Below are positions 30,002-40,025 of a DNA stretch of 64,000 bases, piece after piece. Under the pieces are notes generated by a model. The model was not told the origin of the DNA. It ran no database searches and worked only from the letters and a program-made list of their open reading frames with translations. The DNA is from a virus. Taxonomy: Duplodnaviria; Heunggongvirae; Uroviricota; Caudoviricetes. The stretch lies in IMG/VR virus record IMGVR_UViG_3300027808_000015. One strand, 5' to 3'. A program made the translations under genes and the position numbers. Positions within the stretch are counted from its first letter, which is position 1, and every line of letters starts with the position of its first letter.

Positions 30002-30438
30002 AAATTGGACTAAGTTATAGTCGTTGTGTGCGAGATATTGTAGACGGCAAAGTAGATATTGATGATGTCTTGGTGCTGATCACTCGTACAGATTTTGATC
30101 CTCGTGATGCTGACCAGTGGTCAGGCATTTGGATTGGCTACGGTGGTGGTACTGAAAATGCCTACAGCCGTGGATTCTTTAGTCAGAGCAATCCTGAATG
30201 GGCTGGCTACGCAGACGAAGATCAATTTCGCAGTGTCAGTATTGAACTTTGGGAAAGAGGTCTACTACATCAGCCACGTAAGTTTGGCGCACACCCTACT
30301 CGCCGCCCAGAAATTTGGTTAGAAGCAGTTTTACCAAATAGTGAACTATTGGCTAATCCAGCCGCAAAAGCCGCTTGGGACAAGTTCCAAACTATCGCAA
30401 GTCTTACTAACGTAAAATTAGATGAAAGCTACAAGTGA
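29998..30438 (+). CDS. hypothetical protein
   Basis: 146-aa ORF, coupled. Confidence 0.5.
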   Translation: MKIGLSYSRCVRDIVDGKVDIDDVLVLITRTDFDPRDADQWSGIWIGYGGGTENAYSRGFFSQSNPEWAGYADEDQFRSVSIELWERGLLHQPRKFGAHPTRRPEIWLEAVLPNSELLANPAAKAAWDKFQTIASLTNVKLDESYK

Positions 30439-30965
30439 AATACTTTTTAGCATTGTTGCTAACTGTGAGCCAAATGGCTGTTGCCGGTCAATGTGTTATT
30501 CGGCAAGTTGGCCAAATGACTAGTGATCGAAAGGTTGGGGCGGTCACTGATTTAGTTAAAAGCAAAAATCCAAATAGTTGCAATGTTAAATTTCGTATTG
30601 CTGTAGACGGTGAATTTCATACAATTGATTGGACCCAGACAGGCCTGTACCAAGAAGAAATTCTTTGCCGAATGGCTATTGAACATGGTACTAGAGAATT
30701 AATGGCACGATTGCCCGGAAATTTTAAATCCGAAAGTATAACTGTTTGTGGAGATCCACAAACCCCAAAACGGGTTAGCAAGGGCGATGAGGGAATGGAA
30801 AATGAGTTTGGCAAGGACCGACAATACCAGAATTACTTCAAAGTTGGAAAAGTGTCCAATTGTAGAAAGTTCCAAAATCGTTACATAGATGGCAAGACGT
30901 TACGTGCAGAAGGAGTCATTTGCGAAAACAAAGATCAACTTTGGACAGTTATAGACGTATTCTGA
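30435..30965 (+). CDS. secreted Cys-containing protein
   Basis: 176 aa. N-terminal signal-peptide-like MKYFLALLLTVSQMAVAGQC, with several Cys in the mature part. Confidence 0.5.
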   Translation: MKYFLALLLTVSQMAVAGQCVIRQVGQMTSDRKVGAVTDLVKSKNPNSCNVKFRIAVDGEFHTIDWTQTGLYQEEILCRMAIEHGTRELMARLPGNFKSESITVCGDPQTPKRVSKGDEGMENEFGKDRQYQNYFKVGKVSNCRKFQNRYIDGKTLRAEGVICENKDQLWTVIDVF

Positions 30966-30966
30966 C

Positions 30967-30995
30967 TTGACTTTATTTCGTAACGGTTGTATAAT
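30967..30995 (+). promoter_or_regulatory. sigma-70-type consensus promoter
   Basis: TTGACT, 17 nt, TATAAT immediately downstream of the 30435 gene. Drives the small-membrane-protein, entericidin and lipoprotein genes. Confidence 0.55.
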
Positions 30996-31030
30996 ATACA
31001 CATGTTCAACAAACATAGAAGGCAAACATT

Positions 31031-31159
31031 ATGAAGGCATTTATTTTAGGCACAGTTTTTGGATTGGTACTAGCAACTGTTGGATTTTCCGGCATTGCTC
31101 GTATGCTTGATAGAGGCGTAGACACAGTTAAAACACACAGTCAGGAGATGGCAAAATGA
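31031..31159 (+). CDS. small hydrophobic membrane protein
   Basis: 42 aa (MKAFILGTVFGLVLATVGFSGIARMLDRGVDTVKTHSQEMAK). ATGA-coupled to the next gene. Not in the track. Confidence 0.4.
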   Translation: MKAFILGTVFGLVLATVGFSGIARMLDRGVDTVKTHSQEMAK

Positions 31160-31281
31160 AGATTTTTATAGCACTAATTTTGGCTAGTACGCTAGCCGCA
31201 TGTTCGACCGTAGCAGGCATAGGCAAAGACATTTCGTCTGGTGCCGAATGGTCTAAGGAAAAGATAGGAAAAACACTATGA
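31156..31281 (+). CDS. entericidin-like small lipoprotein (EcnA/EcnB family)
   Basis: 41 aa (MKIFIALILASTLAACSTVAGIGKDISSGAEWSKEKIGKTL). Signal peptide plus lipobox LAAC. Mature CSTVAGIGKDISSG matches the entericidin core (C-N-T-V/A-x-G-x-G-K/E-D-I/V). Not in the track. Confidence 0.55.
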   Translation: MKIFIALILASTLAACSTVAGIGKDISSGAEWSKEKIGKTL

Positions 31282-31838
31282 AAAAGACTCTATTGCTAGT
31301 ACCGATTGTTGCTATGTTAGCGGCTTGTGGTACAACTGACCCATATGGGAAACGTGCTGATATGGAACGTGAACGACAAGTTTCTACTCAAGAGCGCATT
31401 CTTGATAAAACACCTGATTGGTTTAATAAACTTCCGGCTAGTAATTCGGCAGTTTACGAAGCAGGCTTTGGTAGTTCATTTAACATGTCAGACGCAGATG
31501 CTTATGCAAAGAATGATGCATATGGCAAGTTGTGTATGACTGCTGGCGGCAAGACTGCTCAACAAACAAAAACATATTCGTCAGAAGGCGAAAATAGTAG
31601 AACTCAAATCAACGAACGTACTACTAAAAGCTTCTGCCCTAATGTAGATTTAACCGGAGTTGAGCAAAGCCAAATTAAACGTATTATTACACCTAACGGT
31701 AAAATTAATACTTACATACTTGTAGCGTTGCCTACCGGAGATGCAAACATTTTACGCAAAGCTAAAGAAGCTCATGCCGAACGTGAAATTGCAATGAAAC
31801 GTGCTCCTGAAGCATTTAAAGAATTGGAGAGAAATTAA
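31278..31838 (+). CDS. lipoprotein
   Basis: 186 aa. MKKTLLLVPIVAMLAACGTT (signal peptide plus lipobox). The track ORF 31327..31539 is in a different frame and spurious. Confidence 0.6.
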   Translation: MKKTLLLVPIVAMLAACGTTDPYGKRADMERERQVSTQERILDKTPDWFNKLPASNSAVYEAGFGSSFNMSDADAYAKNDAYGKLCMTAGGKTAQQTKTYSSEGENSRTQINERTTKSFCPNVDLTGVEQSQIKRIITPNGKINTYILVALPTGDANILRKAKEAHAEREIAMKRAPEAFKELERN

Positions 31839-32260
31839 TGATTAAAGAATTTATGAATATTGTCGAAACTATAGAGCTGTCTGAAAATGCTATACGTGAG
31901 TTCGCTACTGCGGCACATGAAGAATGGCGACAAAACTTTGACCCAACTGGAACTAAATCGCGCATTAAGAAAAACAGCGATGGCACTGAGGGTGATATTA
32001 ATGTGCCATTTAATGAACTACATCCAGATTGGCAGGCAGAAAATCTAGCCGCTGGTTTGGCCGCAGAACATGCTGTTAAGAAATTTCCAGGTGATATTGA
32101 AAAAGCCGCAGAATATATTCACATAGAGTGGATGAAACGTAATCCCAAGGCTGACTACAATGCGGCACAACATGTCTCTTATGACCAGTTGCCAGAAGAC
32201 GAAAAAGAAAAAGATCGTGTACATGCTCGTACAATGATAAACTTGCTGGGATCAAAATGA
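31838..32260 (+). CDS. hypothetical protein
   Basis: 140-aa ORF, ATGA-coupled. Confidence 0.5.
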   Translation: MIKEFMNIVETIELSENAIREFATAAHEEWRQNFDPTGTKSRIKKNSDGTEGDINVPFNELHPDWQAENLAAGLAAEHAVKKFPGDIEKAAEYIHIEWMKRNPKADYNAAQHVSYDQLPEDEKEKDRVHARTMINLLGSK

Positions 32261-32433
32261 TCCGTCTTTGGTTAGCATTTGCCATACTTGTTGTCCTAAT
32301 ACATTTAGGTATCACTGCCTGGAGAAAGATGGAAGGCAAGGAGCGATGGACATTGACAAAATCCATTGCATATAGTATACTTGTCTCATTACTGGCTGTT
32401 CTAGCAATGACAGTAATTGTAATTTTATTCTAA
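32257..32433 (+). CDS. small two-TM membrane protein
   Basis: 58 aa (MIRLWLAFAILVVLIHLGITAWRKMEGKERWTLTKSIAYSILVSLLAVLAMTVIVILF). Not in the track. Confidence 0.4.
   Translation: MIRLWLAFAILVVLIHLGITAWRKMEGKERWTLTKSIAYSILVSLLAVLAMTVIVILF
32354..32382 (+). promoter_or_regulatory. sigma-70-type promoter (inside the small membrane ORF) upstream of the SPFH gene
   Basis: TTGACA, 17 nt, TATACT. Confidence 0.4.
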
Positions 32434-32442
32434 GGAAACATA

Positions 32443-33243
32443 ATGAAACGTATTTTGACTCTTTCCGTTCTTGCCGCGGCTGTGCTGGCAACAGGTTGTA
32501 CTCGTATCGAAACTGGTGAAGTTGGTGTGCGAGTTGGTTTTGATAAACAGGTGCAAAGTGGTGAACTACTTCCCGGTTCTTTTAATCAAAGTATTATTGG
32601 TGAAGTACTCACATTCCCTATCAAGGATGTGAACGTGGTACTGGAGAATATGACCCCAGTGGCCAAAGACAACTCAACCATGAAAGACTTTGATGCTGTG
32701 GTTGTCTACAACATCAACCCTGGCCAGGTATCTGAACTGTATGCAACCAAGAACAGGAGCTTCCATGCTGAGTTCAAAGGTGATACCTATGTGATGTACA
32801 ACTACATTGTGCAGAATGCTCGTAACGCTATCTACAAGGCCGCTCGCAAGTACGAGGCCCTGGACATGGCAGATGCTCGTAGCGACATGGAAACCTTTAT
32901 CAAGGAAGAAATTGTTCGCAACCTTGCCGAAGAAAAGTTGGACGGCAGTATCAGTATTAGTCAAGTGCTGATCCGTAATATTGTACCAGCTGACTCAGTG
33001 GTAGCAAGTGCTAACGAATTGGTCAAGGCCAAGAACGAGTTCAAGACTGAAGAAGTCAAAGTGGCCACTGCTCGCAAGCGTAATGAATCAATGCAGGCCA
33101 ACCCAATGGCAATTCCCTTGTTGCGAGCTGAAGCTGAAGCTGAAGCCATGCGCAAGTTGCCAGATGCTATTGCCAACTTCAAAGGTCAGACCTTGGTCAT
33201 CAACGGAGTAGTAACACCTACTGTACAAACTAACGCAAAATAA
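32443..33243 (+). CDS. SPFH/band-7 domain lipoprotein (HflK/C- or QmcA-like)
   Basis: 266 aa. MKRILTLSVLAAAVLATGC (lipobox), then RIETGEVGVRVGFDKQV...TFPIKDVNVVLENMTPVAKDNSTMKDFDAVVVYNI and a coiled-coil/Ala-Glu-rich tail (LLRAEAEAEAMRKL), typical of SPFH proteins. Confidence 0.5.
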   Translation: MKRILTLSVLAAAVLATGCTRIETGEVGVRVGFDKQVQSGELLPGSFNQSIIGEVLTFPIKDVNVVLENMTPVAKDNSTMKDFDAVVVYNINPGQVSELYATKNRSFHAEFKGDTYVMYNYIVQNARNAIYKAARKYEALDMADARSDMETFIKEEIVRNLAEEKLDGSISISQVLIRNIVPADSVVASANELVKAKNEFKTEEVKVATARKRNESMQANPMAIPLLRAEAEAEAMRKLPDAIANFKGQTLVINGVVTPTVQTNAK

Positions 33244-33253
33244 GGAGAAGATT

Positions 33254-33949
33254 ATGTTTGGTGCAAATTATACAAATGGCGGTGTTTTAAATTACCGCTC
33301 AGCAGAAGAAATTAATTCGGCTATGGGTCGAGTTTACGGACACATGGGTTTGGCAGTGGTTGTGTCAATGTTGGTCAGTTACTTTGTGGGAACTAGTCCA
33401 GAGTTGCTACAATTCTTTTTCACAGGTGTGCTAAAGTGGATTGTGATCTTTGCTCCACTAGCGGCCATTTTTGGTGTCAGCTATGTGCTAGGCAACAATC
33501 CCAGCAAAGGTGTAGCGCAGTTATGCTTGCATGGTTTTGCGGCACTCATGGGCTTGAGCTTTTCTATGATCTTTGCTGTGTTCAACATGGGTTCAATTGT
33601 TAGTGCATTCATGGGTGCGGCAATCTTGTTTGGTGTCATGAGCGGCTACGGTTACTTTACCAAGAAGGATCTAAGCTCAATGGGACAGATGATGTTTGTG
33701 GGCTTGATTGCTATTGTGATTGCTAGCATTGTAAACATCTTTATTGGCTCAACTGTAATGCAGATGGTTATCAGTGCCCTAGCAATTATTATCTTCCTGG
33801 GACTAACAGCATACGACACACAACGTATTCGTGAAGAAGTCAGTGTTGACACTAGCCCAGCTGTGGAAGTAACCGGCGCATTGACTCTATACATGGACTT
33901 TATTAACTTGTTCTTAAACTTGCTACAGTTGTTTGGCGAAAGAAAATAA
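33254..33949 (+). CDS. BI-1/YccA (TMBIM) family membrane protein, FtsH-modulator-like
   Basis: 231 aa, 7 predicted TM segments. C-terminal GALTLYMDFINLFLNLLQLFG matches the Bax-inhibitor-1/YccA signature. Confidence 0.65.
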   Translation: MFGANYTNGGVLNYRSAEEINSAMGRVYGHMGLAVVVSMLVSYFVGTSPELLQFFFTGVLKWIVIFAPLAAIFGVSYVLGNNPSKGVAQLCLHGFAALMGLSFSMIFAVFNMGSIVSAFMGAAILFGVMSGYGYFTKKDLSSMGQMMFVGLIAIVIASIVNIFIGSTVMQMVISALAIIIFLGLTAYDTQRIREEVSVDTSPAVEVTGALTLYMDFINLFLNLLQLFGERK

Positions 33950-33950
33950 A

Positions 33951-34091
33951 ATGGACGATCCACGCTGTTGCGGCTCTGGCGCTTGTATTATCAACGATGA
34001 AGGCGAGTGTTGGTGCGGACAGCGTTGGGACGGTACAAAGATGTGCTTTCCCGTTTTAGAAACTGAAAAGAAAGAGGACGATGATGTTTGA
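33951..34091 (+). CDS. small Cys-rich peptide
   Basis: 46 aa (MDDPRCCGSGACIINDEGECWCGQRWDGTKMCFPVLETEKKEDDDV) with 6 Cys. Starts 2 nt after the YccA stop. Not in the track. Confidence 0.4.
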   Translation: MDDPRCCGSGACIINDEGECWCGQRWDGTKMCFPVLETEKKEDDDV

Positions 34092-34335
34092 TTGGTTTAA
34101 AAAGAGAGAATATACTAACGTGATTAAATTTCCAGAACAGATAAAAGATCCGATACCGTATATTGAGCCTCCTAAGAAGGAACAAGAATATTACAGTATT
34201 GGAGTTACTAGCGAAAATCGCATAACTTTTAAAACTGGTATATCAACGCTAACTATGAATCGAGAAGGTGTTGAAAATTTGATTCAACAGTTAGCAGTGT
34301 TCCGTGATCAAATTAAAGAAGAACAAGATGTTTAG
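34081..34335 (+). CDS. hypothetical protein
   Basis: 84-aa ORF. Confidence 0.4.
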   Translation: MMFDWFKKREYTNVIKFPEQIKDPIPYIEPPKKEQEYYSIGVTSENRITFKTGISTLTMNREGVENLIQQLAVFRDQIKEEQDV

Positions 34336-34708
34336 TGTACTCAAATTCATTTGGCTGATAAGCCGTTCCTCGTGGGACATCATGAACCCCAATCTAAATC
34401 CTTTACGCCATGCACCTGTGTATGTCAAATACTTTCTCAGCATCCTGCTGGGATGTTTTTGGAGTCTGGCATTTGGTCTTTACATCGGCGAATTGCTCAC
34501 TATTGGTTACAACATGTTGGGTCATATTGCCATCATCAGCATGGTGTTTGCCACCTGGAGTGTGTTTCGTTCAGTGGAAAACACCTATAAGCCACGCACA
34601 GGTGTGAACTGGTTACGAGCTCCTGATCACTCCAGTCGTTGTGATGAGTTGACTGAAGATCAGCGGCTGGCCGGTGTGACTCGTGCTGATCAAATGCTGA
34701 GTCGTTAA
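34304..34708 (+). CDS. membrane protein
   Basis: 134 aa with several hydrophobic helices (FWSLAFGLYIGELLTIGYNMLGHIAIISMVFATWSVF). The nested track ORFs 34351 and 34410 are alternative-frame artefacts. Confidence 0.5.
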   Translation: MIKLKKNKMFSVLKFIWLISRSSWDIMNPNLNPLRHAPVYVKYFLSILLGCFWSLAFGLYIGELLTIGYNMLGHIAIISMVFATWSVFRSVENTYKPRTGVNWLRAPDHSSRCDELTEDQRLAGVTRADQMLSR

Positions 34709-34711
34709 ACA

Positions 34712-34807
34712 ATGAATTTCTTTTGGGGATTCCTATTAGGGTATATTGTGGGAGTGCTGTACATGGCATATCGTTCTAACATAGATTCAAGGACAACTAC
34801 AGAATGA
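34712..34807 (+). CDS. small single-TM protein
   Basis: 31 aa ([31 protein letters not shown]). ATGA-coupled to the next gene. Confidence 0.3.
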   Translation: MNFFWGFLLGYIVGVLYMAYRSNIDSRTTTE

Positions 34808-35220
34808 AATTCTTTGAACCTTTACGTGATGATCTAATGGTACAGCAACAGATCGCAAACAGTTGGGAACACATGGTCGGTGTTATTATGCTGAATCAAA
34901 CTGGTCGTAAACCAGTTAAGATGACATTACCAGAATTCCTCTATTGGTTCCCAAATCCCCAAGCGTTACTACAGGCCGACGAAGATTTTGTCAAAACCAT
35001 ACTGGCACCGTTAGGCATGCTTAATGTACGCTACACTAGACTAATCCGTATGAGCAAGGATTACTTGACCTGGGATGGCGATGATGCTACAATGTTGTAT
35101 GGCATTGGAAAGTATGGTAGCGATAGTTACGAAATATTTTTCAAACAGAACTATTCTGTAGAACCCACAGACAAAGAATTAAAACGATATTTACAAGAGG
35201 AAATAGAATGCCCAATTTAG
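34804..35220 (+). CDS. hypothetical protein
   Basis: 138-aa ORF, coupled to clpP. Confidence 0.5.
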
Positions 35221-35828
35221 TACCAATGGTCATCGAGACCGAAGCAAGGGGCGAACGTGCCTATGACATTTACAGTCGCTTGCTCAAAGACCGTGTTGTA
35301 ATGTTAGACACGGATGTTAACGAGCATACATCGAGCTTGCTGGTTGCTCAGTTGCTCTTTTTAGAGAGTCAAGGAAATGAAGACATTACTTTCTTTATCA
35401 ATAGCCCTGGTGGGTCCGTTACTGCTGGCCTTGCTATTTACGATACCATGCAGTTTATTAAACCCAACGTCGCCACTTACGTTATGGGACAGGCTTGCAG
35501 TATGGGGTCCTTCCTTGCTCAAGCCGGACACCCGGGTAAACGGTTCGTGCTACCCGAAGCACGTACAATGATCCATCGTGTTAGTTCTGGTACTCCGGGA
35601 ACACGTGGTACTGTACACGTACAGGAATTAGAGTTTGAGGACGCAAAGCGTAGTTTTGAAGAGTCCAAACGTATCAACGAACGCTTAACTGAACTGTATG
35701 TCAAGCATAATACCGCTGGAAAAACGTATGCTCAGCTGTACGAAGCTATGAAATTTGATACGTTTTTGAGCGCAAAAGAAGCAGTGGAATACGGATTGGC
35801 TGACAAAGTCATTGATAAACGCCCGTAA
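35208..35828 (+). CDS. clpP: ATP-dependent Clp protease proteolytic subunit
   Basis: 206 aa. The N-terminal region ([46 protein letters not shown]) carries the catalytic Ser in [16 protein letters not shown] carries the catalytic His and [12 protein letters not shown] is a ClpP core block. Confidence 0.85.
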
Positions 35829-35843
35829 AACACGGGTTTTTTA
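35823..35843 (+). terminator. rho-independent terminator after clpP
   Basis: CCCGT-AAAAC-ACGGG hairpin followed by TTTTTT. Confidence 0.6.
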
Positions 35844-35886
35844 AAAAGCCGTAGTACACTATAAATACTAAAGTTAGGAGTGTGCC

Positions 35887-38582: not shown

Positions 38583-38833
38583 CAAACGTTATTAAGATCA
38601 TTATAATGTTAACAACGACAACAACAATGTTGCTGTCGTTTAGTACTGTAAAGACTGATGATACATCTACACAATTATTTTGTGCTTATGGACAAATATT
38701 TGTAGAGTTTAATGAAGGTGATCATAAATGGGGAACACTTTGGCTAGACCGTAATGGCAGGCCGATGCCTTGTAAGGAAGGTCAGCCAGTTGTAGAAAAT
38801 TATTTAAAGGGAAATTATAATGAATCCATTTAG
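38579..38833 (+). CDS. hypothetical protein
   Basis: 84-aa ORF, ATGA-coupled. Confidence 0.4.
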   Translation: MTNVIKIIIMLTTTTTMLLSFSTVKTDDTSTQLFCAYGQIFVEFNEGDHKWGTLWLDRNGRPMPCKEGQPVVENYLKGNYNESI

Positions 38834-39179
38834 AGATCAAGAAAAATTTATGCGAGCCTGCGACCAAACAGTTGGTGGCGAGTTTGACGAGGATCAATTT
38901 AATTTGTACGTTGGTTTGATTGAAGAAGAAGCAGGCGAACTTGCCGAAGCAATTGCCGCACATGACCAAGTAGAAACACTGGATGCTCTTATTGACATTT
39001 TGGTTGTTACCATTGGTGCTATTCATAGCATGGGCAGTGACGCTGAAGGTGCTTGGAAAGAAGTAATGAGTACAAACTTTGCCAAGATTGGCGAAGATGG
39101 CAAAGTACGTAAGCGTGAAGATGGCAAAGTATTGAAGCCAATTGGTTGGGTTCCGCCTAATCTAAAGCCGTTTGTTTAA
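38820..39179 (+). CDS. mazG: MazG-like nucleotide pyrophosphohydrolase
   Basis: 119 aa. LIEEEAGELAEAI ... ETLDALIDILVVTIGA carries the EExxE...D metal-binding motifs of all-alpha NTP pyrophosphatases. Confidence 0.65.
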   Translation: MNPFRDQEKFMRACDQTVGGEFDEDQFNLYVGLIEEEAGELAEAIAAHDQVETLDALIDILVVTIGAIHSMGSDAEGAWKEVMSTNFAKIGEDGKVRKREDGKVLKPIGWVPPNLKPFV

Positions 39180-39188
39180 GGAATAAAA

Positions 39189-40025
39189 ATGAGATCACAT
39201 TACTGGACTATTGGAAAATTTGCCGACTGGCTTCGTGGTACGCCCAAGCTCAAGTGTGGCACCTGCGAAGAATGGGATGCCTGGTACGCTGAAGCAGCCA
39301 AAGCACATCCTATTCGTTACTGGATTGCTGAGGAAGGTCTAGACCACCTTCAAAAATTTGTTTATTACATTCCGGACAAGCTAAATGACATACGCTATTA
39401 TATTAACAATCGCTGGGTTAGTCACAGCCATGCTCTTACCGCACATCCTCGAGACATCAAACCGGGCGCTTGGAATGATGTGGGCAATCGCTTTCTTCCT
39501 TGTATGTTCAATGAGCTTGTGGACTTTGTGGAAATAGAACAAGCATGGCATCACTGTATTTGGAGTGATGATGCTAAGACTAAATTTGAAACTCCATGGT
39601 GGCGCAAGGGATGGCTACGCTGGCGCACATGGCGCAGTCCAGAAGCAGGTATGGAATATCTCAAGTGGGCCAGTGAACTCACTGTTGGAGAAGATATGGG
39701 TGCCGAGCCTGGTAGCAAAGGTTTTGGTGAACCTACATATCAAGCCAAATCTGCTAAAGAAATTATCGAGCTGTACACTTGGTGGACAGTGACCTATCGC
39801 AATCGTCCAGATGCATATGATGCAAGTGGATGGAGTGCGGCCTGCGAAGCCAGTCGTATTGCTAATGGCGGCAAGTTGAGTTTTAGTGGAGATAAAGATC
39901 CCGTGCTTAAAAAGGCCAGCGACAAAGCTCACAAGTTACTTCAAAAAATTGAAGCCGCTTATGAAGCAGAAGATGAAGCTATGATGATTCGTCTAATTAA
40001 AATTAGACAGAGCTTGTGGACATAA
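39189..40025 (+). CDS. hypothetical protein
   Basis: 278-aa ORF. Confidence 0.5.
   Translation: MRSHYWTIGKFADWLRGTPKLKCGTCEEWDAWYAEAAKAHPIRYWIAEEGLDHLQKFVYYIPDKLNDIRYYINNRWVSHSHALTAHPRDIKPGAWNDVGNRFLPCMFNELVDFVEIEQAWHHCIWSDDAKTKFETPWWRKGWLRWRTWRSPEAGMEYLKWASELTVGEDMGAEPGSKGFGEPTYQAKSAKEIIELYTWWTVTYRNRPDAYDASGWSAACEASRIANGGKLSFSGDKDPVLKKASDKAHKLLQKIEAAYEAEDEAMMIRLIKIRQSLWT

What the first reader, a model, noticed from the sequence alone, without database searches (positions are those of the whole stretch)
30967..35846. Envelope and FtsH-modulation gene module: entericidin-like lipoprotein, lipoproteins, SPFH/band-7 lipoprotein, YccA/BI-1, Cys-rich peptide and ClpP
Downstream of a consensus promoter lie a 42-aa membrane peptide, an entericidin-like 41-aa lipoprotein (CSTVAGIGKDISSG) and a 186-aa lipoprotein. 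After a second promoter come an SPFH/band-7 lipoprotein and a YccA/BI-1 family protein (GALTLYMDFINLFLNLL). A 6-Cys 46-aa peptide starts 2 nt after the YccA stop. Two more small TM proteins follow, then ClpP and a terminator. In E. coli the HflKC (SPFH) and YccA proteins regulate the FtsH protease, and entericidins are membrane-active lipoprotein toxin/antidote pairs. A phage carrying this whole set suggests it deliberately rewires host inner-membrane proteolysis, in the way HflKC and FtsH control lambda cII, or envelope stress or lysis timing. It could also be a superinfection-exclusion or anti-defence module.
Basis: partly seen in the sequence, partly recalled or inferred. Interest (0 to 1): 0.72.

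Follow-up and report, generated by a model that had tools for sequence, protein, structure and literature searches.

The report
Mosaic envelope-gene island in jumbo phage
An early-transcribed stretch of an uncultivated giant lake phage is packed with membrane and lipoprotein genes, including a Bax-inhibitor-type channel homologue and a stomatin-like lipoprotein. These are independently shuffled accessory genes, not one co-evolved machine for controlling the host FtsH protease.

Summary
The ORFs, both promoters and the terminator are real. Pfam confirms Band_7 (57 bits), Bax1-I (189 bits) and ClpP (205 bits). The entericidin match stays below threshold.

The window belongs to an abundant, uncultivated jumbo-phage lineage, apparently from lakes. 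Comparison with about 160 related contigs shows the "module" is a mosaic of separate units:
- **Promoter P1 operon:** 42-aa TM peptide, entericidin-like lipoprotein, LPP20-fold lipoprotein.
- **Hairpin plus SPFH lipoprotein:** a 58-aa two-TM hairpin sits directly upstream of SPFH in 77/78 loci, with the SPFH promoter embedded in the hairpin ORF. Positional look-alikes occur in Kuttervirus, cyanophages and a Schitovirus.
- **Solo BI-1 gene:** adjacent to SPFH in only 2/76 loci, with 31 different flanking combinations. Its usual site, after the ligase/MazG genes, is empty in this window.
- **ClpP:** a backbone gene.

BI-1 is YbhL/YetJ-type (40% identity to YbhL, 26% to YccA) and keeps both sensor aspartates, which YccA lacks. 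It is under strong purifying selection (dN/dS 0.07) and forms a clade found here only on phage-like contigs. It matches no PHROGs family, and I found no paper on it.

The FtsH-rewiring idea is therefore weakly supported. The conserved phage BI-1 clade and the hairpin–SPFH cassette are the parts worth testing.

The parts
30435..30965 (+). 176-aa secreted, 6-Cys protein (N-terminal signal-like segment). It lies just upstream of promoter P1 and is syntenic with the P1 operon in relatives.
   Evidence: ORF; hydrophobic N-terminus; no Pfam or NCBIfam family; syntenic at 33-99% identity in relatives.
30967..30995 (+). Promoter P1, sigma-70 type: TTGACT-17-TATAAT.
   Evidence: The two hexamers are kept while the spacer sequence drifts in at least 10 diverged relatives.
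31031..31159 (+). 42-aa single-TM peptide, highly conserved (up to 100% identical where neighbouring genes are 36-56% identical).
   Evidence: No Pfam, PHROGs or NCBIfam family.
31156..31281 (+). 41-aa lipoprotein (Cys16), entericidin-like, with a G-x-G-[KEQ]-D-[ILV] motif.
   Evidence: Pfam Entericidin 19.0 bits, below the 23.3 cut-off. NCBIfam EcnB E = 5.7e-8 but 32 bits against a cut-off of 94.
31278..31838 (+). 186-aa lipoprotein (Cys17) with an LPP20-like alpha/beta core and a C-terminal helix.
31838..32260 (+). 140-aa soluble acidic protein with a sub-threshold RyR-domain match. Its family neighbours BI-1 in several relatives.
   Evidence: Pfam RyR 18.7 and 20.1 bits, below the 27.4 cut-off. 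Adjacent to BI-1 in L009/L010 and L042/L043/L048.
32257..32433 (+). 58-aa two-TM hairpin with a basic loop; the obligate upstream partner of the SPFH lipoprotein.
   Evidence: Immediately upstream of SPFH in 77 of 78 loci, at 31-88% identity. No Pfam family, including NfeD and DUF2065.
32353..32381 (+). Promoter P2 (TTGACA-17-TATACT), embedded in codons 33-34 and 40-42 of the hairpin ORF.
   Evidence: Codon test: Leu33 is TTG in 40/45 (23% elsewhere in the ORF), Thr34 is ACA in 43/49 (36% elsewhere), Ile41 is ATA in 40/40 (15% elsewhere).
32443..33243 (+). 266-aa SPFH/Band-7 lipoprotein (Cys19): SPFH domain, two long helices and a C-terminal beta segment.
   Evidence: Pfam Band_7 57 bits. PHROG 200 'lipoprotein' E = 5e-31. 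Foldseek hits to prohibitin, HflK/C, stomatin, erlin and QmcA at E 5e-8 to 1e-4 over 200-270 columns (the model is only pLDDT 58).
33254..33949 (+). 231-aa BI-1/TMBIM membrane protein of YbhL/YetJ type, with Asp188 and Asp215 at the di-Asp sensor positions.
   Evidence: Pfam Bax1-I 188.6 bits. Aligns to BsYetJ at E = 4e-10. 40% identical to YbhL and 26% to YccA. dN/dS 0.066. Residue positions.
33951..34091 (+). 46-aa Cys-rich acidic peptide (Cys at positions 6, 7, 12, 20, 22 and 32 of the 46-aa form; an alternative TTG start at 33933 gives 52 aa). No signal peptide.
   Evidence: All six Cys are invariant in the 6 full-length variants. The ORF follows BI-1 in some relatives, SPFH in others, and neither in L038. 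No family found.
34081..34335 (+). 84-aa soluble protein of unknown function; variable presence in relatives.
   Evidence: No family found.
34328..34708 (+). 126-aa membrane protein with at least 2 hydrophobic segments; variable presence in relatives.
   Evidence: No family found.
34712..34807 (+). 31-aa ORF with a hydrophobic N-terminal half (judged by eye; below the hydropathy threshold); variable presence in relatives.
   Evidence: hydropathy.
34804..35220 (+). 138-aa HhH-GPD superfamily protein (glycosylase-like); not an envelope protein.
   Evidence: Pfam HhH-GPD 28.6 bits against a cut-off of 26.2.
35208..35828 (+). ClpP-family serine protease (Ser98, His123, Asp184). Part of the conserved ClpP-p242-ligase backbone.
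   Evidence: Pfam 205 bits. 49% identical to E. coli ClpP with the triad aligned. 62% identical to ClpP of PA5oct-type jumbo phages. Synteny.
35821..35837 (+). Intrinsic-terminator-like hairpin (GCCCGT...ACGGGT) followed by TTTTTT, overlapping the ClpP stop codon.
38820..40025 (+). The usual insertion site of BI-1 in relatives, between the MazG-like gene (38820-39179) and the 278-aa gene (39189-40025). It is empty in this window.
   Evidence: commonest flank pair, 13 of 56 loci. Homology of these flanks to the window genes. MazG/PRA-PH Pfam match.

Best explanation
The interval 30.9-35.8 kb is a hypervariable accessory island inside the early, host-RNA-polymerase-transcribed block of an uncultivated jumbo phage, apparently from lakes. 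It carries proteins destined for the cell envelope, and it is assembled from units that are inherited independently.

**The units**
- **Unit A:** promoter P1 drives a translationally coupled run of a 42-aa TM peptide, an entericidin-like lipoprotein and an LPP20-fold lipoprotein.
- **Unit B:** a 58-aa two-TM hairpin plus an SPFH lipoprotein, with the SPFH promoter (P2) written into the hairpin's coding sequence.
- **Unit C:** a promoter-less single BI-1 ORF with its own ribosome-binding site. In this strain it has moved from its usual site (after ligase/MazG) to just behind SPFH.
- **Unit D:** small movable ORFs (the Cys-rich peptide, the 84-aa ORF and two TM proteins).
- ClpP and the ligase belong to the phage backbone.

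**Inferred mechanism**
1. Soon after injection the host sigma-70 polymerase transcribes the island.
2. The Sec and Lol pathways insert the products into the envelope.
3. The SPFH lipoprotein, which has a full SPFH-helix-beta-cap architecture, oligomerises into a cage or ring on a periplasm-facing membrane surface together with its hairpin partner.
4. BI-1 works as a YbhL/YetJ-type pH-gated cation-leak channel in the inner membrane. It buffers ion and envelope stress and so keeps the infected cell productive through a long latent period.

**Shown:** gene content, family assignments, promoter conservation, independent inheritance, purifying selection.
**Inferred:** subcellular location, oligomerisation, channel activity, and the benefit to the phage.
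For: **Phage identity and lineage:**

**Early block:** 7 strict sigma-70 promoters, all on the + strand between 24 and 41 kb, against 0.22 expected. P1 and P2 are conserved in relatives.

**Independent units**
- The hairpin is directly upstream of SPFH in 77/78 loci. BI-1 is adjacent to SPFH in 2/76 and 0/76 loci.
- BI-1 has 22 upstream and 20 downstream neighbour families, giving 31 combinations in 56 loci. The commonest site is MazG | 278-aa gene; these two genes abut in the window.
- BI-1 has no promoter of its own: 2 of 61 upstream regions carry one, about the control rate. It is always inserted as TAA-GGAG-ATG directly after the preceding gene.
- L009/L010 carry a clean deletion of about 0.9 kb. 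It fuses hairpin codon 11 to the SPFH 3' end and keeps a BI-1 that is 99% identical.
- The Cys peptide follows BI-1, SPFH or neither.

**The genes are functional:** dN/dS is 0.066 for BI-1 (dS 1.3), 0.12 for SPFH and 0.16 for the hairpin.

**BI-1 type:**

**SPFH architecture:**

**Positional look-alikes of hairpin+SPFH:** Kuttervirus CBA120, cyanophages BUCT-ZZ01 and S-CREM1, and Acinetobacter phage nACB1. Peptides of the Kuttervirus homologue were detected by mass spectrometry (PMC10892097).

**Envelope enrichment:** p = 0.002.
Against: - No expression, localisation or activity data exist for any of these proteins.
- The window-type SPFH-BI-1 adjacency does recur in L180 and L183, so a local advantage of co-expression from P2 cannot be excluded.
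- The hairpin partners in distant phages show no detectable sequence homology to the 58-aa family (hhalign probability 3% for CBA120). One lineage, AM24, lacks a hairpin. The wide conservation of the pair therefore rests on position and topology only.
- The SPFH model is of low confidence outside the core (pLDDT 58).
- The residue after the lipobox Cys is Thr here and Gly in CBA120. In enterobacteria that would send the lipoprotein to the outer membrane, away from an inner-membrane hairpin. The host's sorting rules are unknown.
- The channel function of BI-1 is extrapolated from BsYetJ, and conservation of Arg60 was not established.
- Loci were chosen by similarity to the window proteins (top 80 per scan), so the frequencies are not population estimates.
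Confidence: 0.6

Rival explanations
1. SPFH (as an HflK/C analogue), BI-1 (as a YccA analogue) and ClpP form one co-adapted module. It binds or inhibits host FtsH and so changes turnover of membrane or regulatory substrates during infection.
For: - The three families are present, and in this strain they sit in one transcription unit between P2 and the terminator.
- HflK/C structures are among the best fold matches.
- Like HflK/C, the SPFH domain is predicted to face the periplasm (lipobox).
- SPFH-BI-1 adjacency recurs in L180 and L183.
- JGI's automatic name for the BI-1 protein is 'FtsH-binding integral membrane protein'.
Against: - There is no co-inheritance, and SPFH is lost while BI-1 is retained in L009/L010.
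- BI-1 is YbhL-type, not YccA-type.
- There is no HflK/HflC model hit, and there is a single lipoprotein rather than a TM-anchored heteropair.
- Prohibitin and stomatin match the fold equally well.
- ClpP is a backbone gene, and other genes are inserted between it and the island in relatives such as L002.
- Bacterial BI-1 genes are not linked to SPFH genes (2 of 76 loci).
- The JGI name is only the old COG0670 label (recalled).
Confidence: 0.12
2. Superinfection exclusion or surface remodelling. The early-made lipoproteins and small TM proteins (the P1 operon, hairpin+SPFH, possibly BI-1) alter the periplasm or inner membrane. Later-arriving phages then cannot inject DNA or reach their receptor, as with T4 Imm/Sp, T5 Llp or the Ltp lipoproteins.
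For: - Early sigma-70 promoters.
- Enrichment of lipoproteins and small TM proteins.
- In CBA120 the hairpin+SPFH pair lies directly after a gene annotated 'superinfection exclusion', with an Rz-like spanin gene about 2.4 kb upstream.
- High mobility and strain-to-strain variability are typical of conflict genes.
- Lipoprotein exclusion systems are well documented (PMC3952083).
Against: - No homology to any characterised exclusion protein.
- PADLOC found nothing.
- BI-1 shows unusually strong, long-term purifying selection (dN/dS 0.07, with dN half that of the ligase). That fits a housekeeping-like role better than an arms-race gene.
- The CBA120 'superinfection exclusion' label is an unverified annotation.
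Confidence: 0.18
3. Control of lysis timing. The entericidin-like lipoprotein acts as a membrane-damaging lysis effector. The SPFH cage and BI-1 delay or tune membrane permeabilisation.
For: - Entericidin-like motif.
- EcnB is a bacteriolytic lipoprotein (recalled).
- An Rz-like spanin gene lies about 2.4 kb upstream of the CBA120 pair.
Against: - Sigma-70 early promoters rather than late ones.
- No holin, endolysin or spanin was recognised in the island.
- Entericidin membership is not established.
Confidence: 0.07
4. Neutral cargo. The genes are recently captured host genes, or decaying passengers with no role in infection.
For: The region is highly variable between strains.
Against: - Synonymous sites are saturated while dN/dS is low for BI-1, SPFH and the hairpin.
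- The nearest genuine bacterial BI-1 is only 42-50% identical.
- More than 590 viral contigs carry BI-1 and about 450 carry the SPFH gene.
- There is nucleotide-level constraint on the embedded promoter.
Confidence: 0.03

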